A DNA stretch of 33,547 nucleotides from Deltaproteobacteria bacterium (GTDB lineage Bacteria > Desulfobacterota > Desulfarculia > Adiutricales > Adiutricaceae): NCBI GenBank assembly GCA_031277995.1, contig JAITLH010000108.1:1-33547 (forward strand), in the 5' to 3' direction. This document shows positions 1 through 27,040 of this stretch, piece by piece. A program made the translations under genes and the position numbers. Below the pieces are notes generated by a model. It did not search any database and had not been told where the DNA came from. It worked only from the letters and a program-made list of their open reading frames with translations. Within the stretch, counting starts at the first letter, position 1; each line of letters starts with the position of its first letter.

Positions 1-694
1 CCAAGTCCGAGGCCAAGCCCAAACCCCCTTGGCCTAGAGCCCTTGGTTTGTTTGGAAAGCCGCCCTTTTTCGCCCAATGACTCGGCACGGGCGATCGGTC
101 ATGGTAGAGTTTTCGCGGATTGGGTTTTTTTTGGTCGGAGCACCAAGGAGGGGATCTGGTCATGTCGGAACATGCCTCTTAAACGGCCGTAAAGGGGTCT
201 GGGAGCCCTTGGGGGCCGCTGACTGGGTTAAGAGCCCGATGGGATTTTCTAGGGCCTCCGCGGTGCCATTTTGGCCGTTTGCGGTGGCGATTCAAAATGC
301 GGTGAGTTTTTAAGTTTTGGGAAGGGGATGGCCGGGCCGGGCTAACTTCTGGGAGGTTTTTTCTGCCCGGGTCAATTGCTGGCCCCTCAACTTCTGGCCG
401 GGTTATTTTTGGCCGCGAACCCGGAGGGAGAACTTAGGGCGCGGGGTCAATTTTTAGGTTTTTAAAAGTTGTCTAAAGTTGGTTGGTTAAATTTTATTGA
501 ATTTTTTTGGGTAGAATAATCGCCTGATTCACGTATTGACGCATAAAAACATTGGTTTAATGGATCTAAAAATACGGGAAAAAAATGGTTCCACTCCCCT
601 CAAAATAGCCCGCTCCTTAGGGCTTAAAGCCTTGGCGGCTCGCCCGCGGCCCTTGGCCAGGGGCCCAAAAAAAAATCGCGAAAAGTATCCAAAA

Positions 695-785
695 TTCAAA
701 AAGTCCTTCAGTCCCTCCCCAAAATCAAACTTCAAAAAGTCCTTAAGTCACTCCCCAAAAACAAACTTCAAAAAGTCCTCCCGGC
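695..785. repeat. 36-bp tandem direct repeat, about 2.5 copies, in the ORF-poor leader upstream of mraZ
   Basis: The unit beginning ttcaaaaagtcc restarts at 695, 731 and 767, giving a period of 36. The + strand ORF 536..853 merely translates it (repeated KKS.S.SPK.NF). Confidence 0.85.
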
Positions 786-3013: not shown

Positions 3014-3345
3014 TTTGGCGTGGCGTTTAACTTTTTGTAAATAATGGGCGGCAAAACCCAACGCGTTTAGCCTGGCGCTTAATTTTTTTCGTAAAATTTG
3101 GCGATTGAAAACAGATCATTGGCGCGGTACTTAGTTTTTTCGTAAACTCGGCGATTGAAGTTAGCTTATTGGCGCGGTACTTAGTTTTTTTCGTAAAATA
3201 TGGCGATTGAAAATAGATCATTGGCGCGGTACTTAGTTTTTTCGTAAACTCGGCGATTGAAGTTAGCTTATTGGCGCGGTACTTAGTTTTTTTCGTAAAT
3301 TCGGCGATTGAAGTTAGCTTATTGGCGCGGTACTTATTTTATTTT
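3014..3345. repeat. Tandem array of units of about 51 bp (about 6.5 copies, two alternating subtypes) in the rsmH-ftsL gap
   Basis: attggcgcggtacttag-T(6-7)-cgtaaa..ggcgattgaa.. restarts at 3118, 3168, 3220, 3270 and 3321, giving periods of 50-52. More degenerate copies start near 3014 and 3066. Subtypes A (..gattgaaaa.agatc) and B (..gattgaagttagctt) alternate, giving a higher-order repeat of about 102 bp. Confidence 0.9.
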
Positions 3346-4141: not shown

Positions 4142-4250
4142 GTGCTCCCTGGGGGCCATGGTTGCCCTGGGGGGCCATGATTGCCCTGGGGGGCCGGGGT
4201 TACCCGGAGGCGTAATTGCCCTGGGGGGCTGGGGTTACCCGGGGGCGTAA
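4142..4250. repeat. G-rich tandem repeats (TGCCCTGGGGGGC core, 4-5 copies; the last two units are 35 bp) in the ftsL-ftsI gap
   Basis: The units read tgctccctgggggccatggt, tgccctggggggccatgat, tgccctggggggccggggttacccggaggcgtaat, tgccctggggggctggggttacccgggggcgtaat, then tgcccc. Confidence 0.85.
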
Positions 4251-4352
4251 TTGCCCCAGAAAATTACTTTTTTGGGCGAATTGCCAAGGGGAGCCAAACC
4301 CTTTTTTGGGGGGCGGCTCAAAGCGATCGGGAAAGGTTTGAGGAGTTTACGA

Positions 4353-9754: not shown

Positions 9755-10834
9755 ATGCTTTACAAGCTACTCCTTAGTTTATCGGACGTGTTTAGTTTTT
9801 TTAACGTCTTTAGATATTTTACCTTTAGGATCATTTTGGCCGCCCTGACCTCAATGCTCCTATGGTTCGTATTTGGCCGGTATTTTATTCGCCTCATAAA
9901 AAAATATGGAGTAAAGCAGTATATAAGGAGCGACGGTCCCTCCAGCCACCAGATAAAAAGCGGCACCCCAACCATGGGCGGGGTTTTCATTATTCTGGCC
10001 GCCCTTTTTTCGAGTTTGTTATGGGCCGACGTAGGCTCGCCCCTGGTCCACTTGATTTGGGAAGTCATTTTACTTTTCGCCCTGATCGGTTTTCGGGACG
10101 ATTACCTAAAGATTAAAAACCGCCGTAACGAAGGCTTATCCGGCAAACAAAAATTACTTTTGCAAACTTTTTTTGGGTTAATGGCTGGCTGGGCCTTGTA
10201 TCTTTCCCCTGATTTTAAACCGCTTTTAACTTTTCCGATCCTAAAGGACGTCATCTATAACCTGGGCCCCTTTTACGTGCCCTTCGCCGCCTTGGTTTTG
10301 GTGGCCAGCAGTAACAGTTGCAACCTAACCGACGGCCTTGACGGACTGGCCATCGGTCCCATAATCATGTGCGCCGGGACGTACATGATTTTCGCTTACT
10401 GCGTTGGCAATTCCGTCATCGCCAGGCATTTGCAGTTAACCCAGGTTCCGGGATCGGCGGAGCTGGCCGTCATACTGGCCTCGCTAATCGGGGCCAGCTT
10501 GGGATTTCTGTGGTACAACACCTACCCTGCCGATATTTTAATGGGGGATATTGGCTCTTTAAGTTTGGGCGCCGCCCTTGGCCTATCGGCATTGATCGTG
10601 AAAATGGAGATTTTACTCATCATGGTTGGCGGCATCTTTGTCCTTGAGGCCGGCTCGGTCATTTTGCAAGTTGGCTACTTTAAATTTACCAAAGGCAGGC
10701 GAATTTTTAAAATGGCCCCGCTTCACCACCATTTTGAGCTCTTGGGTTGGCCCGAACCGAAAGTCGTCGTTCGTTTATGGATCTTGGCCATCATTCTAAG
10801 TTTGGCCGGCATTTCCACCTTAAAGCTACGCTAA
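9755..10834 (+). CDS. mraY: Phospho-N-acetylmuramoyl-pentapeptide transferase MraY
   Basis: It is a polytopic membrane protein with the motifs NLTDGLDGLA, MGDIGSLSLGAALG and APLHHHFEL. Confidence 0.95.
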   Translation: MLYKLLLSLSDVFSFFNVFRYFTFRIILAALTSMLLWFVFGRYFIRLIKKYGVKQYIRSDGPSSHQIKSGTPTMGGVFIILAALFSSLLWADVGSPLVHLIWEVILLFALIGFRDDYLKIKNRRNEGLSGKQKLLLQTFFGLMAGWALYLSPDFKPLLTFPILKDVIYNLGPFYVPFAALVLVASSNSCNLTDGLDGLAIGPIIMCAGTYMIFAYCVGNSVIARHLQLTQVPGSAELAVILASLIGASLGFLWYNTYPADILMGDIGSLSLGAALGLSALIVKMEILLIMVGGIFVLEAGSVILQVGYFKFTKGRRIFKMAPLHHHFELLGWPEPKVVVRLWILAIILSLAGISTLKLR

Positions 10835-10899
10835 AAAGCCGCCAACTTAAAGCCACGCTAAAAGGCCGCCGCCTTAAAGCCACGCTAAAAGGCCATCGA
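10819..10899. repeat. 27-bp tandem repeat x3 that includes the mraY stop codon
   Basis: cttaaagc[tc]acgctaaaa[ag]gcc... restarts at 10819, 10846 and 10873. Copy 1 encodes the last mraY codons plus TAA (10832..10834). Confidence 0.85.
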
Positions 10900-14101: not shown

Positions 14102-14126
14102 TTGGCCAAAAATAAAGGCCCCCAAG

Positions 14127-14294
14127 CCATAAGGCCCAAACCATAAGCCCAAAACCATAACCCCCAGGCCATAAGGCCCAAACCATAACCACCAATGCCA
14201 TAAGCCCCATGCCATAAGGCCCAAACCATAACCCCCATGCCATAAGGCCCAAACCATAACCCCCAGGCCATATGGCCAAACCAAAAGCCCAAAA
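14127..14294. repeat. 14-nt tandem array (CCATAAGGCCCAAA and variants, about 12 units) spanning the ftsW-murG gap and the annotated murG ATG
   Basis: Units start at 14127, 14141, 14155, 14169, 14183, 14198, 14212, 14226, 14240, 14254, 14268 and 14281. The period is not a multiple of 3. The - strand ORFs with GLW/YGLGLMAW repeats are translations of this array. Confidence 0.9.
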
Positions 14295-15507
14295 CCGGGA
14301 CCTAAACAAAGTCCCCATTATTTACGACATACCAAGGACAGTGAAAAAAGATTTCAAGGTTCTCATAGCCGCCGGAGGAACCGGCGGTCACGTGATGCCG
14401 GCCGCGACCGTGGCCGGTGAGCTTAAGGCCCTTTACCCCGAGGCCGACCTTCTCTTCGTCGGGGCCGGGCGCCCGGCCGAAGGGGCCATCCTCGATCCCT
14501 TAGGCTATAAGCGAAAGATCCTAAAGGTCCCGACCTTGGCCGGAAAAAATCCCCTCAAGGCCGCCTTGGCCCTTTTTTCGCTTTTTAAAAGCCTCGTCGG
14601 GGCCGCCTCGATCGTAAGGGACTACAAGCCCGATATCTGTTTGGCCTTTGGCGGCTACGTTTGCGGCCCGGTGGGCTTGGTCGCGAAAATTTTTGGCTTG
14701 CCGCTGGTTTTGCATGAGCAAAATTCCAAGCCGGGCTTGACCAATCGCCTTCTGGGCCGGATCGCCGACCTGGCGATGGTGGGTTTCCCCGAAACCGAGG
14801 AGGCTTTTAAGGCTAGGCGCGTGGCCTACGTCGGAAACCCCGTAAGGAAAGAAATCGCCCTTTTGGGCCAAAAACAAAAAGCCTTTGAACAAAACCCCCT
14901 GGGCCCGCGTCTTTTGGCCGTGGGCGGCTCGCAAGGCTCCAAAAAGCTTAACCTGGCGGTCATGGAACTGGCCAAAACCCTAACCGAGCGCCAAATCCCT
15001 TTTAGGCTGACCCACCAAACCGGGACCCAGATGGAAGCCGAGGTGAAAGGGCGCTACGACGCCCTAAAGATCGAGGCCGAGGTATTGCCTTTCATTTCCG
15101 ACATGGCCCGGGCCTACCTGGAGGCCGATTTGGCCATCACCCGGGCCGGGGCCCTAACCCTGGCCGAACTCGCGGCCGCCAAAGTCCCCTGCGTCCTGGT
15201 GCCCTTACCCACGGCCGCGGGCGACCACCAAAGCGTCAACGCCAGATCGCTTGAAAAAATGGGCTTGGCCCGGGTCGCCCCGGAAAAGGACCTCGATTCC
15301 GGCTTATTGGAAAAGATCGTTTTGCCCTTAATTCAAAACCCGGAAAAACTCCGCGCCATGTCCGAGTCCGTGTCCTTGGAGGCTGGCGATCTCGCTTCCG
15401 TGGGCCCCAAAATGGCCAAGCTGGTCTTGGAAACTTTACGAACCTATCTGGAATCCGAGGCGGCCAAATCCCGGGATTTGGCTTCCAAGCCCGATAAAAA
15501 AGACTAG
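14272..15507 (+). CDS. murG: Undecaprenyldiphospho-muramoylpentapeptide beta-N-acetylglucosaminyltransferase MurG (start uncertain)
   Basis: Motifs are LIAAGGTGGHVMPA and TRAGALTLAELAAAKVPCVLVP, and the gene lies between ftsW and murC. ATG 14272 sits inside the 14-nt repeat array with no SD. GTG 14341 (VKKDFKVLIAAGG) is an alternative start. Confidence 0.88.
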   Translation: MAKPKAQNRDLNKVPIIYDIPRTVKKDFKVLIAAGGTGGHVMPAATVAGELKALYPEADLLFVGAGRPAEGAILDPLGYKRKILKVPTLAGKNPLKAALALFSLFKSLVGAASIVRDYKPDICLAFGGYVCGPVGLVAKIFGLPLVLHEQNSKPGLTNRLLGRIADLAMVGFPETEEAFKARRVAYVGNPVRKEIALLGQKQKAFEQNPLGPRLLAVGGSQGSKKLNLAVMELAKTLTERQIPFRLTHQTGTQMEAEVKGRYDALKIEAEVLPFISDMARAYLEADLAITRAGALTLAELAAAKVPCVLVPLPTAAGDHQSVNARSLEKMGLARVAPEKDLDSGLLEKIVLPLIQNPEKLRAMSESVSLEAGDLASVGPKMAKLVLETLRTYLESEAAKSRDLASKPDKKD

Positions 15508-16995: not shown

Positions 16996-18096
16996 ATGGC
17001 CAGCGACCGACCCAAAAGCCCCAAAGGCCATGGACCCAAATGGCCCGGGCCCAAAAGCCAAGGCCCCAATGTCCAAGGTCCCAATGTCCAAGACCCCAGG
17101 CTGCCTGACCCCCAGGAACAAAACTCCCAGGAATTGGGGCCGGACGGGAAAAAGCCGATCTTAAACCAATCGCTCGAACAATTGGCGGAGTATTCGCGAA
17201 AAAAGCTCGGGATCGAAACCCTGGTCGAGGAACTAAGCGGCTTATCCACCATAGGCATTGGCGGCCCGGCCGTGGTCATTAGGGTAAAAAACGACCAAGA
17301 GCTTATGAAAGTCGTGACCTTCCACGCCCGGGAGGGTTTGGGCTTGGGCGTTATCGGCGGCGGCAGTAACGTTCTTTTTCCGGACGGGGGGCTTTTGGCC
17401 GCGGTGGTCAGGTTGGACGGGGATTTTAAGGAGCTCGCGGTTACCGGAAATTTCGTTAGCGCCGGGGCCGGGACTCCGGTGGGGCTTATCCTTGAGGCCG
17501 GCCAAGAAAACGGTCTGACCGGTTTGGAGTTTTTGGCCGGTTTGCCGGGCACGGTGGGCGGCGCGGTCATGGGTAACGCCGGGTCCAAAAGCCAGGGCCT
17601 GGCCGAGTTAATCGAAAAAATGGAGCTTATTACTCCCTTAGGCGAAAATTTGACCCTGCGGCGGGAAGAAATTTACCCGGTTTATCGGTCGCTTAATTTG
17701 CCCGAGAGCCTTTGCGGGTCCATCGTCAAAAGGGTGACCTTGGCCTTAAGGCCCTCAAACAAAGACTTGGTGGCCAAAAAAATCGCCGAGGAAAGAAAAG
17801 CCCGGCGCGAAGGCCAACCCATCGGACGGAGCCTGGGCTGCGTTTTTAAAAACCCCCAGGGTCAATCGGCCGGAAGGCTCATTGACTTATGCGGCCTTAA
17901 GGGCCAAGCCCAGGGCGGGGCCCAGATATCCCAAAAGCACGCCAACTTTATCCTAAACATCAAACGGGCCAAGGCCTCTGACGTTTTGGCCCTGGCCAAG
18001 CTGGCTAGAAGCGAAGTTTTGGCCAAGCATCGAATTAAACTTTTAACGGAAATAAAAATCTGGGACGAAATGGCCCGCGAGGTGGGCCTTTCCTAA
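16996..18096 (+). CDS. murB: UDP-N-acetylenolpyruvoylglucosamine reductase MurB with a P/K/Q-rich N-terminal extension
   Basis: Motifs are GIGGPA, GGGSNVLF, GLEFLAGLPGTVGGAVMGNAG, LGCVFKNP and HANFILN. AAAGGA lies 5 nt upstream of ATG 16996, which supports the extension of about 60 aa (..GPNVQGPNVQDP.., from a 15-bp tandem duplication). Confidence 0.9.
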   Translation: MASDRPKSPKGHGPKWPGPKSQGPNVQGPNVQDPRLPDPQEQNSQELGPDGKKPILNQSLEQLAEYSRKKLGIETLVEELSGLSTIGIGGPAVVIRVKNDQELMKVVTFHAREGLGLGVIGGGSNVLFPDGGLLAAVVRLDGDFKELAVTGNFVSAGAGTPVGLILEAGQENGLTGLEFLAGLPGTVGGAVMGNAGSKSQGLAELIEKMELITPLGENLTLRREEIYPVYRSLNLPESLCGSIVKRVTLALRPSNKDLVAKKIAEERKARREGQPIGRSLGCVFKNPQGQSAGRLIDLCGLKGQAQGGAQISQKHANFILNIKRAKASDVLALAKLARSEVLAKHRIKLLTEIKIWDEMAREVGLS

Positions 18097-19147: not shown

Positions 19148-19470
19148 AGCCCGAAAGCTCGCCCCTTAAACGAGTGGGCGCCCTTAAAAAAATAAATCGG
19201 TTTTTTAAAAACCGGGAAGCCAAGGCCTCCCCAAAGGCCCCAAAGACTGGCAAGATTCGAGAGCGCGAAAGCCAGTCTCCCAAAGGTAACCCGGCCGGCC
19301 CTAGGCCCGGCCCATAAAGGGCGTTGGCCCTTGGCCCCAACAAAAGATCAAACGGTTCCCCGGCGCGTCGGATTGGTTTGGTCCCGTTTCCCATAATCGC
19401 GTACCTTTTCGCGAGGTTCGCCCATTTCGCGCCAAAATCGCCTTCACCGCGTTATAGGGAGGATTTAGAA

Positions 19471-20697
19471 ATGTCCAAAAGTGACGAAGTGTTAGTGGCC
19501 ATCGATATCGGGACCACTAAAATAGCTTGCCTGGTGGCCGAAAAAAACGAAGAGTCAGGCCTTAACATCAAAGCCATAGGGTACGCTCCTTCGGATGGTT
19601 TGGCCAATGGCCGGGTCATCGACATGCAAAAAACCGAGCGGGCCATCGTGGAAGCCGTGGATAAGGCCTCGCAATATTCGGGCTACGATTGCCAGTCGGC
19701 CTACATAGGCATCGCCGGGGAACACATAAAAGGAACGCAGGTTTACGCGCCCGTCGCGGTAAACGGTTCCGGGGTCATAAACCAAAGCGACATAGATCGG
19801 GCCATAAACTCGGCCATGGTTTTTCAGATTCCCACCAACCACACGATCCTTGACAGGCTCCCCATGGAGTTTTGGGTAGACGGGATGCAAGGGATAACCA
19901 ACCCCATAAACATGCGGGGCCATACGCTCGAAATGTTCCTAAACGTTTTCACCGTGGACTCCAACTGCCTAAACGATCTCTGCCAGTGCGTCCACAGCGC
20001 CGGTTTGGGGATAGAAAACGTGTATCTGGAATCGGTGGCCTCGGCCGAGGCGGTTTTGACCCAGGCGGAAAAGCAACAGGGCGTACTTTTGCTTGACATA
20101 GGTGGCGGGACCACGGGCATGGCCGTGTTCATGAACGGCGTTATCCACCACGTCCAGGAAATCGCCGTGGGCGGGGACGCCCTAACCTGCGATCTGGCCA
20201 CAAGCTTAAACATTTCCCTGGACTCGGCCGAACGGTTAAAGCTCTCACATGGCTACTGTTTTGAAGGGCTTCTTCCGTACGATTACGGCATCGAGGTCCC
20301 TTGCTTGGATGAAATCAATACCGTGGAAATCGGCGCCGACCATGTCTGCATGATCTTGAGAAGAAGGATGTCGAGCCTTTTCGCCCACGTCAACCGCGAG
20401 CTTATTTATAGCGGTTATGACGAAGGGGTAAAAAACGTGGTCGTGACGGGAGGGAGCTCGTTACTCATGGGCATTCGCGAGCTGGGCGTGGACATCTTCA
20501 ATCGGCAGATCCGGGTCGGCTATCCGCTCTTTAACGGAAGCATGGCCGAAATGGTGGGGAGCCCCATCTACTCCACCGCCGTGGGCCTGATGCTTTACAG
20601 CCAGAACAATTTATCTAACTTGGTAAACTTCGCCCCCAGAAAGAGTCCCTCTACGGGCGTATTGGGAAAATTCATGGATTTTCTGGCCGGTAGGTGA
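19471..20697 (+). CDS. ftsA: Cell division protein FtsA
   Basis: Actin-fold motifs are VAIDIGTTKIACLVAE, LLDIGGGTTGMAVF and VVTGGSSLLMGIRE. The C-terminal amphipathic segment is GVLGKFMDFLAGR. GGGAGGA at 19457..19463 precedes ATG 19471. The ORF-track start at 19324 adds an implausible leader. Confidence 0.93.
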   Translation: MSKSDEVLVAIDIGTTKIACLVAEKNEESGLNIKAIGYAPSDGLANGRVIDMQKTERAIVEAVDKASQYSGYDCQSAYIGIAGEHIKGTQVYAPVAVNGSGVINQSDIDRAINSAMVFQIPTNHTILDRLPMEFWVDGMQGITNPINMRGHTLEMFLNVFTVDSNCLNDLCQCVHSAGLGIENVYLESVASAEAVLTQAEKQQGVLLLDIGGGTTGMAVFMNGVIHHVQEIAVGGDALTCDLATSLNISLDSAERLKLSHGYCFEGLLPYDYGIEVPCLDEINTVEIGADHVCMILRRRMSSLFAHVNRELIYSGYDEGVKNVVVTGGSSLLMGIRELGVDIFNRQIRVGYPLFNGSMAEMVGSPIYSTAVGLMLYSQNNLSNLVNFAPRKSPSTGVLGKFMDFLAGR

Positions 20698-20874: not shown

Positions 20875-20910
20875 TTAGTGGGGCGGGGAGTCCGGGGCCC
20901 AAAGGCCATG

Positions 20911-20960
20911 GCCCATGGGCCCATTTTCTATGGGCCCATGGGCTAAAATAATTTTTTTTT
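20911..20960 (+). terminator. Probable intrinsic terminator between ftsA and the first FtsZ paralogue
   Basis: There is a perfect 13-bp GC-rich stem, gcccatgggccca-ttttcta-tgggcccatgggc (20911..20943). It is followed by taaaataa and a T9 run (20952..20960). The 8-nt gap before the T-run lowers confidence. Confidence 0.55.
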
Positions 20961-21056
20961 CGGGCTTTTCCATGGTCTGAGCCCTTTCAAACCAAGGTCT
21001 GAAAATAAAAAAAAAGAGCTTTTTGGTATTAAAGTTAATACTCATAAATATAAATA

Positions 21057-22184
21057 ATGGCCTCCCCTAAACGAAAAAAAGGCGCCCTCAAAAAACCGGC
21101 GATCCGCGTGGTGGCGGTGGGCTTGGGCGGCTGCGGCGCCGGGGCCATAGAACGAATGGTTAAGCGCGGCTCCAAGGTTTCGGCCCTGATCGCCGCCGAT
21201 AGCCTTTTCCCGCCCAGGGAATCGACCCCGGAATGCTTCGATATCCCAATCGGCGCAATCGGCGCAATCGGCCCAAACGGCGCAATCGGCGCAAACGGCC
21301 CAAACGGCGCAAACGGCGCAAACGGCCCAAACGGCGCCAAAGGCCTTTTGAGGGAATCGACCCCGGAATACTTCGATATCCCAATCGGCCCCAAAGGCCC
21401 TTTGGCCGACGGTTCCCAAAAGCCGGGGCGCCGAGCCATAAATGAGTCGCTTTCAAAAATCACCAAAACCATCGGAAAAGCCCAAATGGTTCTGGTCATC
21501 GCCGGACTTGGCGGATCGGTTGGCACGGCCGCGATAACGCCCTTGGTGGAAAGGTTAAAAAAGCGAAAAAAAGCCCCCCTCGTGGTTAGCGTGGTCGTAT
21601 TGCCCTTTGTCTGGGAATGGACCCGATCGATTTTGGCCAAAAAAACCGTCGAAACGCTTTTGGTTAAAAGCGACTCGGTTATCGCCGTTTCCAACGACAA
21701 GGTCCATTTGTCTAACCCCGGGGCCAAAATGCCCCAATGCCTGGCCATGGCCGATGGCCTGCTCGATTTGGCCGTAAGTTCTTTGACCGATCTGGTTTAC
21801 CAACCCGGCGAGATGAATTTGGATTTCGCCGATCTTCGGACGGCCCTGTCCGCGGGCGATCTTGGCGTCATGGGTTTTGGCGAGGCCAAAGGGCCCAATC
21901 GTTCCATAGAGGCGGCCAGAACGGCTTTAAACTCCCCCCTCATGGAAACCAAATCCCTAACCGGGGCCAAATATTTTTTAATCCAACTAAACGCCCCAAA
22001 GGACCTTAAGGCCAGTGAATTTATCGCCTTAAATGAGTTTTTAATCAAAGGGCTAAGCCCGCTCGCCCAGGTTTTTTTGGGCCTAACCTACGACGAAAAC
22101 CTCAGGGACTCGGTAAAAGTTATCGTCATCGCCACCGGTACCCTAAGCGACAAAAAAGACCCCCAAGTCCCCAAGGGCCCTTGA
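21057..22184 (+). CDS. Degenerate FtsZ paralogue (FtsZ/tubulin fold, eroded GTP-binding motifs, collagen-like insertion, no C-terminal tail)
   Basis: It is collinear with the downstream FtsZ. Shared strings include IRVVAVGLGGCGAGA, PLVVSVVVLPF, SVIAVSND, TDLVYQPGEMNLDFADLRTAL, LTGAKYFLIQL, PKDLKASEF and KVIVIATG. Against the paralogue and canonical FtsZ, NTD is ADS, GLGAGGxP is GPLADGSQKP, and the tubulin signature GGGTGTG is GGSVGTA. No SD precedes the ATG. Confidence 0.8.
   Translation: MASPKRKKGALKKPAIRVVAVGLGGCGAGAIERMVKRGSKVSALIAADSLFPPRESTPECFDIPIGAIGAIGPNGAIGANGPNGANGANGPNGAKGLLRESTPEYFDIPIGPKGPLADGSQKPGRRAINESLSKITKTIGKAQMVLVIAGLGGSVGTAAITPLVERLKKRKKAPLVVSVVVLPFVWEWTRSILAKKTVETLLVKSDSVIAVSNDKVHLSNPGAKMPQCLAMADGLLDLAVSSLTDLVYQPGEMNLDFADLRTALSAGDLGVMGFGEAKGPNRSIEAARTALNSPLMETKSLTGAKYFLIQLNAPKDLKASEFIALNEFLIKGLSPLAQVFLGLTYDENLRDSVKVIVIATGTLSDKKDPQVPKGP
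21216..21389 (+). repeat. In-frame internal duplication: two 39-bp direct repeats flanking ten 9-bp tandem units (a GXY triplet tract) inside the FtsZ paralogue
   Basis: agggaatcgaccccggaat[ga]cttcgatatcccaatcggc occurs at 21216..21254 and 21351..21389, with 1 mismatch and a 135-nt offset. Between them lie 9-mers such as gcaatcggc, gcaaacggc and ccaaacggc. The encoded sequence is RESTPECFDIPIG-(AIG AIG PNG AIG ANG PNG ANG ANG PNG AKG)-LL-RESTPEYFDIPIG. Confidence 0.9.
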
Positions 22185-22241
22185 CCTTACGGTTTTAAAG
22201 TCTCCAATGGCCCTTGACCTAATGGTTTTAAAGTCCCCAAG
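22176..22241. repeat. 33-bp tandem direct repeat x2 that includes the stop codon of the FtsZ paralogue
   Basis: ggcccttgacct[ta]a[ct]ggttttaaagtc[tc]cca occurs at 22176 and 22209. The TGA at 22182..22184 lies in copy 1. A degenerate third copy lies near 22333 (cgttttagtgtctccaatgagtcttgg). Confidence 0.8.
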
Positions 22242-22445
22242 GGTAGCGTTTTTTCGTCCCGAGCCCTAAAGAGCCTATTTTATGGGAATCTTATTTGAAA
22301 CGGATTTCTTTTAACCTAAAACATTTGGCTAACCGTTTTAGTGTCTCCAATGAGTCTTGGCAATCGAGCTAAAAACCTAGCGTAAAGTAACGTTTTTAGC
22401 CGAAATTAGCCGACAGGCTTCAAAAGGCCAGTGGCCGGAGTAAAA

Positions 22446-22510
22446 ATTAGGCGACCAAGGCTAGCCATCGTGACTCTAAAGGTCAGGGCGAGCCTAATTT
22501 TTTTTTAATC
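22446..22510 (+). terminator. Possible terminator: interrupted hairpin followed by a T10 run in the AT-rich spacer
   Basis: attaggc at 22446..22452 pairs with gcctaat at 22492..22498, with inner gacc/ggtc pairing, and tttttttttt follows. The large interior loop makes this weak. Confidence 0.35.
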
Positions 22511-22810
22511 GATCGAAATTTTTATCATCAAAGTTCAAAATCAGTGTTTTAGTTGAATGGCCAAACTGATATTGGCGTCTAGAATATTTTTTTACTTGAT
22601 TGTTTGAAAACCATTTGATATTATGAATAGGTATTTTAAGATAGGCGATATAGGTTGGCCTTGGCGGAAAAAGATAGGGTTTAATTTTGTCAGAAGGTCA
22701 CTGACAATGCGTTTGAATCTTTCCAATGCTAGCAAAAATCGCTAAAAACATAATGAGAATTCATCGTCCATAGAGATTGTTAGATATTTATGGCCAAACG
22801 CCAAGCCCAT

Positions 22811-22850
22811 CCATCGCCACCAAGGCGACGCGTCGCCTTGGTGGCGATGG
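22811..22850. repeat. Perfect 40-bp GC-rich palindrome in AT-rich DNA
   Basis: ccatcgccaccaaggcgacg|cgtcgccttggtggcgatgg is an exact reverse complement about the 22830/22831 centre (the centre reads acgcgt). No T-run follows. Confidence 0.9.
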
Positions 22851-23198
22851 CCTAAAGTCAAACCAAGTCGCCTAAAGTTAAGCCCCGTAAATCCAAGTCA
22901 CGTAAAACTCGATTCTTTACTATATTTTATTTCCCAACGCAAAATTAACCAGCCGATTTAATTTTTATAGTCCTCAAAAAATTTTTTTCGAATTTAAACT
23001 CGCCAATACGTAAGCTTAAAACCGACCGAATATTTCTTAAAATCTTGAAATCGCCTTTAAGTTCAATATTGGCAAAAAATAAATTAAACGCTTAAATTAG
23101 TTTTAGATAATTTAAGTTTCAAAAGGTAACAATATATCTGGAGCGCTCTTTAAACGCCGTTTTTAAGGTCGCGCGCATAGTTATAAGGAGTATGATCG

Positions 23199-24824
23199 AT
23201 GGCTGACGATGTCGTAAAAAAGGCTCCCAAGAAGACCGCTTGCCGGTTAGTCATAATTGGCCTGGGGGGTTGTGGCTCCAACGCTATTAGTAACATGATC
23301 AAGCAGGGCATGACTGGGCCGACTTTGATTGCCGCCAATACCGACGTCGAGCACCTCGAAAGATGCTTGGCCCCGGTAAAGATCCAACTCGGTCCCGAGT
23401 TAACCGAGGGTTTGGGCGCCGGGGGCGATCCGAGCGTTGGGTGCCAAGCGACCGAGGAATCGATGCCCGAAATCATGGAAGAAATCGGCGACGCCCATTT
23501 GGTCTTTGTCACCGCCGGCTTGGGCGGCGGCACCGGGACCGGCGCGGCCCCGGCGGTCGTCAGGCACTTAAATAAGCAGAAAAAGCCGCCGCTCGTGGTT
23601 AGCGTGGTCGTTTTGCCCTTTAAGGAAGAGATTGGCCGGCCCGAAAAAGCCAAACCGGCTTACGAAGAGTTATTGGCCATCAGCAACTCCGTAATCACGG
23701 TTTCCAACGACCGGCTCTTTGAGACTTTTCCCGAAATCTCCATGCCGGAAGTCTCCCTTAGGGCCGACTTGGTTCTCTATAAGGCCGTTAGCTGCGTTAC
23801 CGATCTTATCTACAATCCCGGCGACATCCATTTGGATTTCGCCGACATCCGGACCGCCTTTAGGGCCAAGGGCTTGGCCATCATGGGCGTCGGGGAAGCC
23901 AACGGCCCGGATCGCTGCGTTGAGGCGGCGAAATCAGCCATCAATTGCCCGCTTATGGACAATAAGCCCATCACCGGGGCCAAGTACCTCTTGATTAACC
24001 TAACGGTCCCCAAGGATATCAAGGCTTCGGAGTTTCTGGGCGTAAACAAGTACCTCGTCGAGTTGGTTGGCCCGGGCGTTCAGGTTCTTACGGGCATCAC
24101 CTACGACGATTCGTTGGCCGAATCGGGCACGGTTAGGGTTACCGTCATCGCCACGGGCCTTCCGGTCGATGAGCCCCAAAAAGAAGAGCCCATGATCAAT
24201 CTCGACGATGACGAGGACGAGCCCATTACCCTTTTGATGGAGGTCGAGCCCAAAATTTCCCTACCCCCGGACCAGGCCCAGCGTCCGGCGCCCCAGGCCC
24301 AAAGCCAGTATCCGGACCAAGCCCAGGCCCAAGGCCAAGGCCAGTATCCGGGCCAAATCCAAGGCCAAGGCCAAGTTCGGGGCCCGGGCCAATACCCAAA
24401 CCAGCCCCGGCCCAGCCAATACCCCGGCCAGCCGCAAGGCCAATACCCCGGTCAGGCCCAGGACCAATACCCGCCCCAGGGCCCAAGCCAGTATCCCGGC
24501 CAGCCCCAGGGCCAATATCCAAACCAGGCCCACAATGGCGCCGAGGGACAGGTCCAGACCCCGGGACAAACGTCCATGCCCAAGGCCAGGCAAACGGTTA
24601 AGTTATCCAACGAGCCCTTGGACCGGGTTCCCACCTTGGTTGGCAACAATAAGTACGCCCAAAACGGCTTCGCCGTGGCTCCCTTAAACGTGGTCAAGAA
24701 AGCCAACGCCCAAAGGAATCCGTCGCCGACGGATCAACGGAACCTTTTGGGACAGTCCAAACGCGGTTTGGCCGAGGCCAGAAAAGACGACAAGGGCCCC
24801 TACATGCATGACAAGGCCAACTAA
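23199..24824 (+). CDS. ftsZ: Cell division GTPase FtsZ (intact GTP pocket, long P/Q/Y-repeat C-terminal linker)
   Basis: Motifs are RLVIIGLGGCGSNA, ANTD, KIQLG, GLGAGGDPSVG, the tubulin signature AGLGGGTGTGAAP, SNDRL, the T7 region GDIHLDFADIRTAF and RVTVIATG. AAGGAG at 23185..23190 lies 8 nt upstream of the ATG. The gene is the last of the dcw order. Confidence 0.9.
   Translation: MADDVVKKAPKKTACRLVIIGLGGCGSNAISNMIKQGMTGPTLIAANTDVEHLERCLAPVKIQLGPELTEGLGAGGDPSVGCQATEESMPEIMEEIGDAHLVFVTAGLGGGTGTGAAPAVVRHLNKQKKPPLVVSVVVLPFKEEIGRPEKAKPAYEELLAISNSVITVSNDRLFETFPEISMPEVSLRADLVLYKAVSCVTDLIYNPGDIHLDFADIRTAFRAKGLAIMGVGEANGPDRCVEAAKSAINCPLMDNKPITGAKYLLINLTVPKDIKASEFLGVNKYLVELVGPGVQVLTGITYDDSLAESGTVRVTVIATGLPVDEPQKEEPMINLDDDEDEPITLLMEVEPKISLPPDQAQRPAPQAQSQYPDQAQAQGQGQYPGQIQGQGQVRGPGQYPNQPRPSQYPGQPQGQYPGQAQDQYPPQGPSQYPGQPQGQYPNQAHNGAEGQVQTPGQTSMPKARQTVKLSNEPLDRVPTLVGNNKYAQNGFAVAPLNVVKKANAQRNPSPTDQRNLLGQSKRGLAEARKDDKGPYMHDKAN
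24265..24535 (+). repeat. Coding low-complexity repeat (QYPGQ[PA]QG-type units) forming the FtsZ C-terminal linker
   Basis: The protein reads ..QAQSQYPDQAQAQGQGQYPGQIQGQGQVRGPGQYPNQPRPSQYPGQPQGQYPGQAQDQYPPQGPSQYPGQPQGQYPNQ.. The DNA repeats cagtatccgg / caataccccgg. Confidence 0.85.
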
Positions 24825-24827
24825 AAC

Positions 24828-26642
24828 TTGCCCGACAAAGCGGCCTTATTTTCGGCGGATCGTCAGGGCCCAAAGGGTAAGCGAGTAAGCGCGCGAAGGG
24901 GGATTTCCCGGGGAAAACCCGAACCCCCTTACAAATTAACGGCAAACGAGATCGGGGCGGTAAAACGCGATAGGGGCGGCCGGTTGTCGGTGGCCTTGGT
25001 TTGGCCAGGCGATTACCACACGGGCATGTCGTCGCTTGGTTATTTATGGGTCTACCGCTTTTTGGCCCAAAGCCGGACGGCCCTGGGGGAGAGGTTTTTC
25101 GCCCTGGGCCAGGCTCCCGACGAAAGGCCGATGTCTTTGGAAAGCCGGCGGCGCCTTTCGGATTTTGACCTCATCGCCGCCTCGATGGTCTTGGAAAACG
25201 ACTATTGGCTTTTGCCGGATATATTAAGGCGTTCCGGCCTGGCCCCTTACCGCGAAGACAGAAACCGCGACGGCCCCATGATCGTCTGCGGCGGGGTGGG
25301 CGTTTGGAGTAACCCTTGGCCGCTTTTGCCTTTCGTTGACTTGGTTTTGCTGGGGGAAGGGGAAAACCAATGGCCGATAATCGTCGAGACCTATAACCAA
25401 AAAGATTTCCTGGCTCTGGATTATTTTGAAAGATTGCGCCATCTCGTAACCGTCGTGCCCGGGGCCTTGGCTCCGGGTTTGTGTCATTTTGGGGCCGAAA
25501 TTGAGGGCTTTGGTTTTGGCCCAAACGATTGTTTAAGCCCGGACGGACATTTGTCCAAGGTTCGAAGTTCGCTTTTAAAATGGCCCTTTGACGATCGCCT
25601 AACCCCACCGTCATCGCCCATATTGACGCCGCTGACGGAATTTCCCATGACCACCTTGGTGGAGATTAGTCGCGGCTGCCCTTGGGGTTGCCGTTTCTGT
25701 TTGGCCGGTTACCTATACCGTCCCCACCGGCCTTGGTCGTTTGAGTCAATCATCAAAGCCGCCTATTCGATGGTCGAAACTTCCGGCCGCGTGGGCTTGG
25801 TCAGCCCGGCCGTGGCCGATCACCCGGAGCTGGGAAAAATCCTTGAGGCCCTAATCGAAAACGGCACCTCGGTTGGGGTTTCCTCCATGCGCCTTTCCTC
25901 GCTCACGGAAAATTTGGCCAAGTATCTCTCCCGGGCCGGGTTAAACGCCTTGGCCGTCGCCCCCGAGGCCGGGAGCCAAAGGCTTCGAAACGTCATAAAC
26001 AAAAATTTAAATGAGTCCGAGGTCCTTTCCTCGGCCAGGTTATTGGCCGGCCACGGCCTTAAGCGCCTAAAACTCTATTTCATGATAGGCCTCCCCGACG
26101 AAAACGAGGACGACTTAAGGGATCTGGCCCAGCTGGTAAGTTTGGTAAAAAAAGAAACCCGCGTCGGCCGGGGCGGCCCCAAGATATCCGTCTCCGTTTC
26201 CAACTTTACCCCCAAGCCCCAAACGCCTTTCGAGGACCGGCCCCTTTTGACCGAACGGGAAATGAGAGAGCGGGGCAAAAAAGTAACCGATTATTTGGCC
26301 AAGATCGGCGATCTGGAATTACGGATCGATCCCCCCAAAGGGGCCATTTTGCAAGGGCTTTTGTCCCGGGGCGGCCCAAACTCGCACCTTTTGGTGAAAG
26401 CCCAGATGGATTCCCGAGGCCAGCTCGGCGCCGCCCTTAGGGCCATAGGCTACGGCCCGGATCACCCCATCCACCGGCCCTTTGGCGCCCAAAAACCCTG
26501 GCGCCTAATAAGCCCCAACGTGGGTTACGATTATTTGGCCTCCGAAGCCCTTTTGGCCCAAAGCGAAACTCCCTCCGCCCCTTGCCCCCCCTCCCTGGGG
26601 TGCGGCCGCTGCCTGGCTTGCGAGGGCGCCTTGAAACGCTAA
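24828..26642 (+). CDS. Radical SAM protein with an N-terminal B12-binding-like domain (uncharacterised family)
   Basis: It has the CX3CX2C cluster motif in EISRGCPWGCRFCLAGYLYRP. The N-terminus (SVALVWPGDYHTGMSSLGYLWVY..) is typical of the rSAM family of about 600 aa that I believe is TIGR03960-like. The ORF opens at TTG 24828, 3 nt after the ftsZ TAA. It has no SD, and the next Met is residue 67. Confidence 0.8.
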   Translation: MPDKAALFSADRQGPKGKRVSARRGISRGKPEPPYKLTANEIGAVKRDRGGRLSVALVWPGDYHTGMSSLGYLWVYRFLAQSRTALGERFFALGQAPDERPMSLESRRRLSDFDLIAASMVLENDYWLLPDILRRSGLAPYREDRNRDGPMIVCGGVGVWSNPWPLLPFVDLVLLGEGENQWPIIVETYNQKDFLALDYFERLRHLVTVVPGALAPGLCHFGAEIEGFGFGPNDCLSPDGHLSKVRSSLLKWPFDDRLTPPSSPILTPLTEFPMTTLVEISRGCPWGCRFCLAGYLYRPHRPWSFESIIKAAYSMVETSGRVGLVSPAVADHPELGKILEALIENGTSVGVSSMRLSSLTENLAKYLSRAGLNALAVAPEAGSQRLRNVINKNLNESEVLSSARLLAGHGLKRLKLYFMIGLPDENEDDLRDLAQLVSLVKKETRVGRGGPKISVSVSNFTPKPQTPFEDRPLLTEREMRERGKKVTDYLAKIGDLELRIDPPKGAILQGLLSRGGPNSHLLVKAQMDSRGQLGAALRAIGYGPDHPIHRPFGAQKPWRLISPNVGYDYLASEALLAQSETPSAPCPPSLGCGRCLACEGALKR

Positions 26643-26710
26643 AACAGGCCCATCGCCCAGCCATGGGCCGTTTCCCCAGGGCTTTTTGGCGCTTCGATTT
26701 TCGTCGCTTC

Positions 26711-27040
26711 GATTACCCATGTTTATGGGTAAAAAAAATTTATTCGTCAGCCCTTTACCCCAATCCGTGGGTAAAATATTTTTTTTCGAGACGTCGATTA
26801 CCCATGTTTATGGGTAAAAAAATTTTTTTTCGTCAGCCCTTTACCCCGGGCCGTGGGTAAAATAAATTTTTTCGAGACATTGATTACCCATGGTTATAGG
26901 TAAAAAAAATTTTTTCGTCAGCCTTTTACCCCAAGCCGTGGGTAAAATTATTTTTTTCGAGACGTCGATTACCCATGTTTATGGGTAAAGTCAGCCTTTG
27001 GTTACTTAGATTACTCTGGTTTATGGGTAAAAATATTTTT
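26711..27040. repeat. Tandem array of units of about 85 bp (3 full copies plus 1 partial), each carrying two TTACCC..GGGTAA hairpins followed by A/T runs
   Basis: gattacccatg restarts at 26711, 26796, 26882 and 26967. Each unit is ttacccat-gttt-atgggtaa + A8T3, then tttaccc-N8-gggtaaa + T-run + cgagacgt. A degenerate last hairpin lies at 27011..27030. Confidence 0.9.

What the first reader, a model, noticed from the sequence alone, without database searches (positions are those of the whole stretch)
21057..24824. Two tandem FtsZ paralogues with complementary motif loss: a possible heteropolymeric (tubulin A/B-like) or capped division cytoskeleton
The dcw cluster ends in two FtsZ-family ORFs, 21057..22184 (375 aa) and 23199..24824 (541 aa). 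They are clearly paralogues of each other. PLVVSVVVLPF is identical in both, and SVI[AT]VSND, TDL[VI]Y.PG...LDFAD[LI]RTA, TGAKY[FL]LI, PKD[LI]KASEF and V.VIATG are near-identical. The downstream copy keeps every GTP-pocket element: GLGGCGSNA, NTD, KIQLG, GLGAGGDPSVG and the tubulin signature GGGTGTG. However, it has His at the position of the canonical T7 Asn (DIHLDFAD, compared with E. coli N-V-D-F-A-D). The upstream copy shows the opposite pattern. Its T7 loop is canonical (EMNLDFAD), but NTD has become ADS, the T3 loop has become GPLADGSQKP and the signature has become GGSVGTA. It also carries a 45-aa insertion in the nucleotide-binding domain, and it has no C-terminal linker or anchoring peptide. 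I infer that copy 1 probably cannot bind or hydrolyse GTP itself, but could insert a catalytic T7 loop into the pocket of copy 2. That would make it an obligate or regulatory co-polymer partner (as in alpha/beta-tubulin or BtubA/B) or a filament-end capper, with membrane tethering supplied only by copy 2. I am not aware of a characterised dcw-encoded FtsZ pair with this division of labour.
Basis: partly seen in the sequence, partly recalled or inferred. Interest (0 to 1): 0.85.

Follow-up and report, generated by a model that had tools for sequence, protein, structure and literature searches.

The report
Degenerate extra FtsZ beside real FtsZ
Next to its normal cell-division gene ftsZ, this uncultured bacterium carries a young, fast-evolving, shortened second copy that has lost its GTP-binding loops but kept the loop that activates a neighbouring subunit, so it may regulate FtsZ from one side; it is not half of a tubulin-like pair, and it is known from this one contig only.

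Summary
Both ORFs are real FtsZ-family genes at the end of a dcw cluster, in the order ftsQ, ftsA, copy1, ftsZ, radical SAM. They are 43% identical. Copy2 (541 aa) is the canonical FtsZ. Copy1 (375 aa) has replaced invariant residues in loops T1 to T4. It carries an in-frame 135-bp slippage insertion at the S3/T3 junction and has no linker or C-terminal peptide, but it keeps N165, the guanine-binding Asp and the T7 loop NxDxxD.

The "complementary loss" idea fails. The T7 His of copy2 is also found in related genomes that have only one ftsZ, so it is a clade trait and not a defect that copy1 must repair.

Copy1 is a lineage-specific duplicate. It sits inside the copy2 clade with 99% bootstrap support, on a branch about 6 times longer in dN. 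It has no orthologue among 1.84 billion representative proteins.

It is not simply decaying. Its omega is about 0.3-0.5, it has no stop codons (neutral simulation gives about 9), and its losses cluster in the phosphate loops (Fisher p = 0.003).

The best reading is a one-sided pseudo-GTPase that binds the nucleotide face of FtsZ. This is untested. Recent death of the gene cannot be excluded. I rate it a new variant of the known truncated FtsZ paralogues, of moderate interest.

The parts
19471..20697 (+). ftsA. The ORF opens at 19324, but the likely start is ATG 19471, which has GGAGG 8 nt upstream.
   Evidence: Pfam FtsA and SHS2_FTSA. Shine-Dalgarno scan.
20895..20960 (+). GC-rich GGGCCCAT palindromic repeat forming a terminator-like hairpin followed by a T-run, between ftsA and copy1.
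21057..22184 (+). Copy1: a 375-aa divergent, C-terminally truncated FtsZ paralogue with degenerate GTP loops. It has no Shine-Dalgarno sequence. The database gene call starts at TTG 21402.
21120..21146 (+). Copy1 T1 loop, GLGGCGAGA. The invariant Asn (E. coli N24) is replaced by Gly.
21198..21206 (+). Copy1 T2 position: DSL in place of the invariant NTD.
21255..21389 (+). In-frame 135-bp (45-aa) insertion at the S3/T3 junction. It consists of a 9-bp repeat array encoding a G-X-Y collagen-like run, followed by a second copy of RESTPE[C/Y]FDIPIG. AlphaFold2 predicts residues 56-101 as disordered.
21396..21428 (+). Copy1 T3 loop, GPLADGSQKPG, in place of GLGAGGDPSVG.
21510..21530 (+). Copy1 tubulin-signature (T4) position: GGSVGTA in place of GGGTGTG.
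21813..21833 (+). Copy1 T7 loop, MNLDFAD, with canonical Asn (AAT), Asp and Asp retained.
21996..22022 (+). Copy1 bottom-face S9 segment, PKDLKASEF. It is clade-specific and nearly identical to PKDIKASEF in copy2.
22165..22243 (+). 33-bp tandem repeat (2.4 copies) that contains the copy1 stop codon. It marks the point of C-terminal truncation.
22440..22790 (+). Ancestral ftsA-ftsZ intergenic element conserved in relatives. It has a terminator-like stem with a T-run (about 22440-22510) and a sigma-70-like promoter (about 22596-22642). This implies a 5' UTR of roughly 570 nt for copy2.
23199..24824 (+). Copy2: canonical FtsZ, 541 aa, with AAGGAG 8 nt upstream. All GTP loops are intact. It has a Q/P/G-rich linker of about 210 aa and a divergent C-terminal peptide, GPYMHDKAN.
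23826..23846 (+). Copy2 T7 loop, IHLDFAD. The His (CAT) replaces the usual Asn and is a clade trait shared with single-copy relatives.
24828..26642 (+). Radical SAM gene. It is the syntenic downstream neighbour in all relatives.

Best explanation
Copy1 is a lineage-specific tandem duplicate of the resident ftsZ. It was inserted between ftsA and the ancestral ftsZ promoter region. It then evolved about 6 times faster than copy2 and became a 'one-sided' pseudo-GTPase.

Shown:
- It keeps an FtsZ fold.
- It keeps the bottom (T7/H8/S9) polymerisation face.
- It is under purifying selection.
- It has replaced the invariant phosphate-binding residues of loops T1 to T4.
- It carries a disordered 45-aa insertion at T3.
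- It has lost the linker and the membrane-tether peptide.

Inferred:
- It cannot hold GTP, so it cannot offer a top face for another subunit.
- It can still dock its T7 face onto the nucleotide face of FtsZ (copy2), either on free GTP-bound monomers or at the filament end that exposes the nucleotide. In current FtsZ polarity models that is the minus, shrinking end.
- In doing so it would block that face and possibly trigger hydrolysis of the bound GTP.
- It would therefore act as a non-essential, dosage-dependent modulator of Z-ring assembly, most likely inhibitory through monomer sequestration or GAP-like action, and possibly a minus-end cap or nucleator.

Copy2 is a fully self-sufficient FtsZ.
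For: Duplication and placement:
- Copy1 nests inside the clade {copy2, P0005-P0008} with 99% bootstrap support and is sister to copy2 at 69%.
- It shares derived residues with copy2 and L005: DL[IV]Y, GP[DN]R and PKD[IL]KASE.
- Its best non-self hit among 1.84 billion representatives is copy2.
- The relatives L001 and L003 have the order ftsA, about 1 kb of spacer, then a single ftsZ. Their conserved intergenic element maps downstream of copy1.

Selection:
- dN on the copy1 branch is 0.41, against 0.063 for copy2.
- Omega is about 0.28-0.49 in all three segments, including residues 1-66.
- Differences by codon position are 0.40, 0.29 and 0.55.
- A neutral simulation at the observed divergence gives about 9 stop codons, no stops in only 0.05% of runs, and a mean amino-acid identity of 0.30 (maximum 0.40). 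The observed values are 0 stops and 0.48.

Targeted loss:
- Clade-invariant residues are kept at 10 of 23 positions in the T2, T3 and T4 segments, against 59 of 75 elsewhere (Fisher p = 0.003).
- The invariant residues N24, N43, T44, D45, G69, G71, G107, T108 and G111 are replaced. E138, R142, N165, the guanine-binding Asp, N207, D209 and D212 are kept.

Fold: the AlphaFold2 model has pTM 0.80, with only residues 56-101 disordered. Foldseek matches FtsZ structures at TM about 0.88.

Precedent: truncated FtsZ paralogues that modulate or inhibit division are known, for example A. tumefaciens FtsZ1 (bioRxiv 10.1101/2025.09.29.679267). The FtsZ plus end is the C-terminal (T7) interface (PMC9897490).
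Against: - No orthologue exists anywhere, so there is no comparative evidence that the gene is retained.
- The closest relative, L005 (77% identity), is cut 494 bp upstream of ftsZ and is uninformative.
- There is no Shine-Dalgarno sequence and no consensus promoter upstream of ATG 21057. A terminator-like hairpin lies between ftsA and copy1.
- The public gene caller rejected the N-terminal 115 codons.
- dS is saturated (about 1), so omega values are rough.
- A recent neutral phase of up to about 5% divergence would leave the ORF intact in about 25% of runs.
- The AlphaFold2 model rests on an alignment of canonical FtsZ sequences.
- No heterodimer prediction, GTP-binding assay or expression data are available.
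Confidence: 0.42

Rival explanations
1. Copy1 is a recently inactivated duplicate, an incipient pseudogene. It functioned as some kind of FtsZ paralogue for most of its history but is now untranscribed or useless. The in-frame repeat expansion at T3 and the repeat-associated C-terminal truncation would be early signs of erosion in a repeat-ridden genome.
For: - It is a singleton with no orthologues.
- It has no Shine-Dalgarno sequence or recognisable promoter, and a terminator-like hairpin lies upstream.
- Both structural anomalies coincide with local tandem repeats, which are abundant across the window.
- The essential GTP loops are destroyed.
- A neutral phase of about 5% divergence cannot be excluded.
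Against: - The 375-codon frame is intact, with no stop or frameshift, despite 42% nucleotide divergence from copy2.
- Omega is about 0.3-0.5 even in the N-terminal 66 codons.
- Residue loss is concentrated in the nucleotide loops instead of being uniform.
- Both the insertion and the truncation preserve the reading frame.
Confidence: 0.3
2. One reading: copy1 and copy2 are an obligate heteropolymer pair like alpha/beta-tubulin or BtubA/B. Copy1 would supply the catalytic T7 Asn that copy2 lacks, and copy2 would supply GTP binding and the membrane tether.
For: - The Asn/His difference at T7 is real (AAT against CAT).
- The bottom face of copy1 is conserved and clade-matched.
- The two genes are adjacent.
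Against: - The His is present in the only FtsZ of L001 and L003, which have the same synteny and no copy1. It is also present in L005, P0008 and P0127. Copy2-type FtsZ therefore works alone.
- D209 and D212 are intact in copy2.
- A subunit without nucleotide and with a 45-aa insertion at T3 cannot propagate a filament beyond itself.
- Copy1 is absent from all other sampled genomes.
Confidence: 0.04
3. Copy1 still binds nucleotide in a non-canonical way and assembles or co-assembles as a GTPase-competent short FtsZ. This would resemble Magnetospirillum FtsZm, rhizobial FtsZ1/FtsZ2 or plastid FtsZ1.
For: - The base- and ribose-contacting residues N165, the guanine-binding Asp, E138 and R142 are retained, as is the glycine backbone G22, G24, G25, G27, G150, G152, G153, G156.
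- The overall fold is predicted with confidence.
Against: Nine residues that are invariant in the 121 canonical FtsZ sequences aligned here are replaced in exactly the phosphate-binding loops. In addition, a 45-aa insertion sits at T3. From general knowledge, not tested here: single substitutions in the E. coli tubulin signature, G105S and T108A, already impair GTP binding or hydrolysis.
Confidence: 0.1
4. Copy1 has been recruited to a function unrelated to FtsZ filaments, with the collagen-like G-X-Y insertion as a new interaction module.
For: - The long branch suggests a changed constraint.
- The insertion gives weak Collagen and Lcl-adhesin hits.
Against: - The insertion hits are below the family thresholds, and the repeat is a simple 9-bp microsatellite.
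- The best-conserved surfaces are precisely the FtsZ-FtsZ bottom-face elements.
- The gene sits between ftsA and ftsZ.
Confidence: 0.08

Closest known systems
Truncated FtsZ paralogues of Hyphomicrobiales (A. tumefaciens FtsZ1 and FtsZ3, S. meliloti FtsZ2)
   Same: They are extra FtsZ copies that lack the C-terminal linker and/or tether peptide. They are non-essential. FtsZ1 blocks division when overexpressed, so a regulatory role has been proposed (bioRxiv 10.1101/2025.09.29.679267).
   Different: Those paralogues lie outside the dcw operon, are ancient and are conserved across families. The preprint describes them as 'FtsZ GTPase' duplicates. Copy1 sits in tandem inside the dcw cluster, is a singleton, and has lost the GTP-contact residues while keeping T7.
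Magnetospirillum FtsZm and plastid or cyanobacterial FtsZ1/FtsZ2 pairs
   Same: A second FtsZ that lacks the C-terminal tether motif and is thought to co-assemble with, or tune the turnover of, the main FtsZ. The plastid case is cited. The FtsZm case is from my own knowledge.
   Different: Those paralogues keep all GTP-binding motifs and polymerise. Copy1 does not keep the motifs.
Protein inhibitors that bind one FtsZ polymerisation face (SulA, MciZ, MipZ)
   Same: They work the way I propose for copy1: they occupy one longitudinal interface of FtsZ to sequester monomers or cap an end (PMC9897490).
   Different: They are unrelated in fold to FtsZ, and SulA, MciZ and MipZ target the C-terminal (T7, plus-end) face. 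Copy1 would be an FtsZ-derived binder of the opposite, nucleotide face. There is no experimental support for this yet.
Engineered one-face E. coli FtsZ interface mutants (L178E, L272E)
   Same: These point mutations in a polymerisation interface lock FtsZ as a monomer (PMC12754632). They are the laboratory analogue of a subunit with only one usable face.
   Different: They are artificial single substitutions. Copy1 is a natural gene with many changes, and it has also lost nucleotide binding and the tether.
PseudoGTPase subunits in other cytoskeletal polymers (septins)
   Same: Paralogues in which the nucleotide pocket degenerated while the assembly interface was retained (PMC10731463).
   Different: This is a different protein superfamily, and those subunits are conserved, obligate members of hetero-oligomers.

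Membership tests
FtsZ/tubulin superfamily (Pfam Tubulin PF00091 + FtsZ_C PF12327) | Both domains score above the Pfam gathering thresholds. | tested here: met
   Copy1 scores 68.5 bits (cut-off 33) and 67.5 bits (cut-off 27). Copy2 scores 135.2 and 67.0 bits.
FtsZ/tubulin superfamily | FtsZ two-domain fold. | tested here: met
   The AlphaFold2 model of copy1 has pTM 0.80. The top Foldseek matches are FtsZ crystal structures, with target-normalised TM 0.84-0.89. Caveat: the input alignment consisted of canonical FtsZ sequences.
Canonical cell-division FtsZ (NCBIfam TIGR00065 equivalog) | Score at or above the curated cut-off of 295.2 bits. | tested here: not met
   Copy1 scores 167.6 bits. Copy2 scores 267.8 bits, just below the cut-off because the whole clade is divergent.
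Canonical cell-division FtsZ | Intact GTP-binding loops: T1 GGGxxN, T2 NTD, T3 GLGAG, and T4 GGGTG[ST]G. | tested here: not met
   Copy1 has N24G, NTD replaced by DSL, GLGAGG replaced by GPLADG plus a 45-aa insertion, and GGGTGTG replaced by GGSVGTA. Copy2 meets all four.
Canonical cell-division FtsZ | T7 synergy loop NxDxxD. | tested here: met
   Copy1 has N254, D256 and D259. Copy2 has H211, D213 and D216, with the Asn replaced by His as in its single-copy orthologues.
Canonical cell-division FtsZ | C-terminal linker plus a conserved C-terminal peptide that binds FtsA or ZipA. | tested here: not met
   Copy1 ends 14 residues after VIATG. Copy2 has a linker of about 210 aa and a clade-type peptide, P-x-[FYW]-M-x-x-K-A-[ND]. 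Binding to FtsA itself cannot be tested with these tools.
Canonical cell-division FtsZ | GTP-dependent polymerisation and GTPase activity. | not testable with these tools
   This requires purified protein.
Obligate tubulin-like heterodimer (alpha/beta-tubulin, BtubA/B) | Both partners are conserved together, and neither is found functioning alone in relatives. | tested here: not met
   L001 and L003 carry only the copy2 orthologue in the same synteny. Copy1 has no orthologue in any database searched.
Obligate tubulin-like heterodimer | Both subunits bind nucleotide. | tested here: not met
   The phosphate loops of copy1 are degenerate at the sequence level. Nucleotide binding was not measured.
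Truncated regulatory FtsZ paralogues (rhizobial FtsZ1 type) | An extra FtsZ GTPase domain without the CTL/CTD, kept alongside a canonical dcw ftsZ. | tested here: met
   Domain architecture.
Truncated regulatory FtsZ paralogues (rhizobial FtsZ1 type) | Common descent with, or conservation like, the rhizobial paralogue lineages. | tested here: not met
   Copy1 derives from its own genome's ftsZ, within a termite-gut 'Deltaproteobacteria' clade. It is an independent duplication and a singleton.

The most novel reading that the evidence does not exclude
Copy1 is a naturally evolved, FtsZ-derived 'half subunit'. Its nucleotide pocket and top face are dead and its T7 face is alive. It docks onto the GTP face of FtsZ monomers or onto filament minus ends. 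It would then act as a dedicated FtsZ GAP or sequestering factor, or as a gamma-tubulin-like minus-end cap or nucleator. That would be the first cytoskeletal regulator of FtsZ known to have been made from FtsZ itself by pseudoenzyme evolution. Tandem ftsZ duplication recurs in this termite-gut clade (L010), which would suggest repeated selection for such extra copies.
Probability: 0.3. Interest if true: 0.7.

Novelty: new variant of a known kind. Interest (0 to 1): 0.45.

Why it matters
If copy1 is functional, it would be a natural version of the one-faced FtsZ mutants used to work out filament polarity and treadmilling. It would show that bacteria, like eukaryotes with septin pseudoGTPases and with tubulin isotypes, can turn a duplicated polymer subunit into an end-specific or monomer-specific regulator. 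It would also give a simple reagent, a protein that binds only the nucleotide face of FtsZ. If it is only a dying duplicate, it is still a clean snapshot of how an essential polymerising GTPase decays: the phosphate loops and the tether go first, and the fold and the T7 face go last. Either way, the correction matters. The T7 His in copy2 is a clade trait of self-sufficient FtsZs, which shows that the 'invariant' T7 Asn can be replaced.

Tried and rejected
- The word-index homologue search with full-length copy1 was swamped by the low-complexity repeat and returned only 3 hits. Repeating it with residues 116-375 also missed copy2 and P0005/P0006, so I do not treat these searches as strong evidence of absence. 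I rely on the exhaustive HMMER scan instead. That scan hides relatives more than 50% identical to a representative, but copy1 is its own representative.
- Pattern scans of JGI metagenomes found nothing with copy1 and nothing closer than already known with copy2.
- The GTDB genome scan with copy2 found one closer relative, L005. Its contig starts 494 bp upstream of ftsZ, so it cannot show whether copy1 is present.
- An exact look-up of the window's own protein to identify the source sample failed.
- Rfam and tRNA scans of the window and of the 1-kb spacer found nothing. One Corona_FSE hit was below threshold and I take it as chance.
- The self-comparison found no similarity between the upstream regions of the two copies, so the duplication boundaries cannot be mapped.
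- dS is saturated, so I cannot date the duplication or give a precise omega.
- I considered a mobile-element origin for the 45-aa insertion and rejected it. The repeat occurs nowhere else in the window and grows out of the local CCAATCGGC codons.
- I considered an assembly artefact and rejected it. The two copies are only about 66% identical at the DNA level.
- AlphaFold-Multimer was not available.
- The paper by Du et al. 2018 (PMC6196554) on kinetic polarity is not held in the library. I took the polarity statement from PMC9897490.

Full report
**1. The observation**

The window is a dcw cluster: FtsI, MurE, MurF, MraY, MurD, FtsW, MurG, MurC, MurB, FtsQ and FtsA. It is followed by two FtsZ-family ORFs on the + strand, 21057..22184 (375 aa, "copy1") and 23199..24824 (541 aa, "copy2"), and then by a radical-SAM gene.

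- Both ORFs exceed the Pfam thresholds for Tubulin and FtsZ_C.
- They align to each other at 43% identity, E = 3e-69.

There are small corrections.

- In register, NTD has become DSL (LIAANTD against LIAADSL), not ADS.
- Copy1 has also lost the T1 Asn.
- The "45-aa insertion" is exactly 135 bp (21255-21389). It is a 9-bp microsatellite that grew out of the local CCAATCGGC (P-I-G) codons and encodes a G-X-Y run, plus a second copy of a 38-bp direct repeat. It occurs nowhere else in the window.
- The stop codon of copy1 lies inside a 33-bp tandem repeat.

**2. What copy2 is**

Copy2 is the organism's canonical FtsZ.

- It aligns end to end with solved FtsZ structures, E about 1e-62.
- It keeps all nucleotide-contact residues.
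- It has a strong Shine-Dalgarno sequence.
- It has a long Q/P/G-rich linker and a clade-type C-terminal peptide.

Its closest relatives are FtsZs of uncultured "Deltaproteobacteria" MAGs at 67-77% identity. "Pcl387" bins are described as lower-termite gut MAGs.

**3. The "complementary loss" claim fails**

The T7 His of copy2 (IHLDFAD) is also found in P0005, P0006, P0008, P0127 and the L005 FtsZ. P0007 has Arg, and P0126 and P0128 have Asn.

P0005 and P0006 sit on long contigs (L001, L003). These have the same synteny (ftsQ, ftsA, about 1 kb of spacer, ftsZ, radical SAM, GH3) and only one ftsZ. A His-bearing FtsZ therefore works alone in these bacteria, and copy2 needs no donor of an Asn. 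The difference between the copies is a single nucleotide, AAT against CAT.

**4. Where copy1 came from**

In a neighbour-joining tree, copy1 falls inside the clade {copy2, P0005-P0008} with 99% bootstrap support. It is sister to copy2 at 69%, on a much longer branch. It shares derived residues with copy2 and L005.

An exhaustive HMMER scan of 1.84 billion representative proteins found nothing closer to copy1 than copy2, at 50% identity over residues 113-370. Other searches found no orthologue either.

The conserved ftsA-ftsZ intergenic element of the relatives maps to window 22440-22790, downstream of copy1. It contains a terminator-like stem and then a sigma-70-like promoter. Copy1 is therefore a lineage-specific duplicate inserted between ftsA and the ancestral ftsZ promoter. 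The one closer genome, L005, is truncated 494 bp upstream of ftsZ and is uninformative.

**5. Is copy1 decaying?**

Mostly not.

- Nei-Gojobori estimates give dN = 0.41 on the copy1 branch, against 0.063 for copy2.
- dS is saturated (about 1), so omega is rough. It is about 0.28, 0.49 and 0.28 for residues 1-66, 111-220 and 221-365.
- Differences from copy2 at codon positions 1, 2 and 3 are 0.40, 0.29 and 0.55.
- A neutral simulation at the observed 42% nucleotide divergence predicts about 9 stop codons, no stops in 0.05% of runs, and 30% amino-acid identity (maximum 40%). The observed values are no stops and 48% identity.
- A recent neutral phase of 5% divergence or less cannot be excluded. 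In that case the ORF stays open in 25% of runs, ignoring indels.

The residue losses are targeted. Of positions that are invariant in eight clade FtsZs, copy1 keeps 10 of 23 in the T2, T3 and T4 segments and 59 of 75 elsewhere (Fisher p = 0.003).

- Replaced: N24, N43, T44, D45, L68, G69, G71, P74, G107, T108 and G111.
- Kept: E138, R142, N165, the guanine-binding Asp, N207, D209, D212, R214 and the clade-specific bottom-face segment PKD[LI]KASEF.

The AlphaFold2 model has pTM 0.80 and shows an FtsZ fold. Only residues 56-101 are disordered, and the second repeat copy forms strand S3. Foldseek returns FtsZ structures at target-normalised TM of about 0.88.

**6. Expression signals are weak**

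There is no Shine-Dalgarno sequence or consensus promoter before ATG 21057. A terminator-like hairpin with a T-run lies between ftsA and copy1. The public gene call starts at TTG 21402 and gives 260 aa. However, codons 1-66 also show a coding-type substitution pattern.

**7. Mechanism (inferred)**

FtsZ longitudinal contacts join the nucleotide-bearing top face of one subunit to the T7 bottom face of the next. The growing (plus) end is the C-terminal, T7 interface (PMC9897490).

Copy1 has only a usable bottom face. I therefore propose that it docks onto the nucleotide face of FtsZ monomers or onto filament minus ends. There it would block that face, and through its intact T7 loop it might stimulate hydrolysis of the bound GTP. 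It would contribute no membrane tether.

The net effect is most likely inhibitory and dose-dependent. A minus-end cap or nucleator role is also possible. None of this was tested here. The main rival is a recently dead duplicate.

**8. Comparison with known systems**

Truncated FtsZ paralogues are already known. The cited preprint reports at least five independent bacterial duplications, often with truncated copies. A. tumefaciens FtsZ1 inhibits division when overexpressed (bioRxiv 10.1101/2025.09.29.679267).

Copy1 differs from these in four ways.

- It lies in tandem inside the dcw cluster.
- It is evolutionarily young and a singleton.
- It has lost the GTP-contact residues while retaining T7.
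- My literature searches for a pseudo-GTPase FtsZ found none. The nearest concept is the septin pseudoGTPases.

I therefore rate it a new variant of a known kind.

**9. A second tandem ftsZ in a relative**

A more basal member of the same clade, L010 (the context of P0009), also has a second ftsZ directly downstream of its ftsZ. It is 83% identical to the first over the 106 visible residues, its motifs look canonical, and it is cut by the contig end. Tandem ftsZ duplication therefore seems to recur in this group.

**10. Verdict**

Interest is moderate (0.45). The anatomy is attractive and testable, but it rests on one contig, with no conservation and no expression evidence.

Noticed in passing
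L010:6001-7760 (JGI 3300042618 Ga0466723_053715): A related genome has ftsA, ftsZ (P0009, 446 aa) and then a second ftsZ-like gene starting 86 bp downstream. The second gene is cut by the contig end after 111 codons. It is 83% identical to the first, and its motifs look intact. This is an independent tandem ftsZ duplication in the same clade.
   Followed up: partly
window 22440-22790: A conserved non-coding element in the ftsA-ftsZ spacer is shared with L001, L003 and L005 at 70-77% identity. It has a terminator-like stem with a T-run, then a promoter-like TTGA(T/A)T, 17 nt of spacer, and TAT(T/A)AT. This implies an unusually long (about 570 nt) 5' leader for ftsZ. It has no Rfam match.
   Followed up: partly
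window 22811-22850: A perfect 40-bp palindrome (CCATCGCCACCAAGGCGACG followed directly by its reverse complement) lies inside the putative ftsZ leader.
   Followed up: no
window 690-779, 3078-3340, 4147-4256, 10815-10894, 14120-14296, 17018-17098, 20895-20943, 26709-26989: The contig is unusually rich in short tandem repeats with periods of 8 to 102 bp. They lie in intergenic regions and at the 5' ends of ORFs (for example the murB and murG starts). This suggests a slippage-prone or eroding genome.
   Followed up: no
window 24200-24794: The linker of copy2 is about 210 aa of Q/P/G/Y-rich imperfect repeats (24-bp and 48-bp DNA repeats at 24290-24532). The clade shares a conserved acidic motif, DDDEEPITLxVEPEPQI, at the start of the linker and a divergent C-terminal peptide, P-x-[FYW]-M-x-x-K-A-[ND]. 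Copy1 keeps a vestige of the linker motif (TLSDKKDPQV).
   Followed up: partly
P0124, P0125, P0133 (database proteins): These proteins of 744-840 aa contain two complete FtsZ domains in one chain, with the GTP motifs intact in both. They may be natural fusions or merged gene models of tandem ftsZ pairs from other organisms.
   Followed up: no
window 21057-22184 and 23199-24824: The public gene calls are N-terminally short for both genes: 260 aa for copy1 and 509 aa for copy2, the latter starting at M33 inside the T1 loop region. The canonical FtsZ (copy2) scores 267.8 bits, below the TIGR00065 cut-off of 295.2, so automated annotation of this clade may be unreliable.
   Followed up: partly
window 21035-21748 (- strand): A 237-aa antisense ORF overlaps copy1. 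The repeat region is open in all frames. This is most likely a compositional artefact of the stop-free 9-bp repeat.
   Followed up: no
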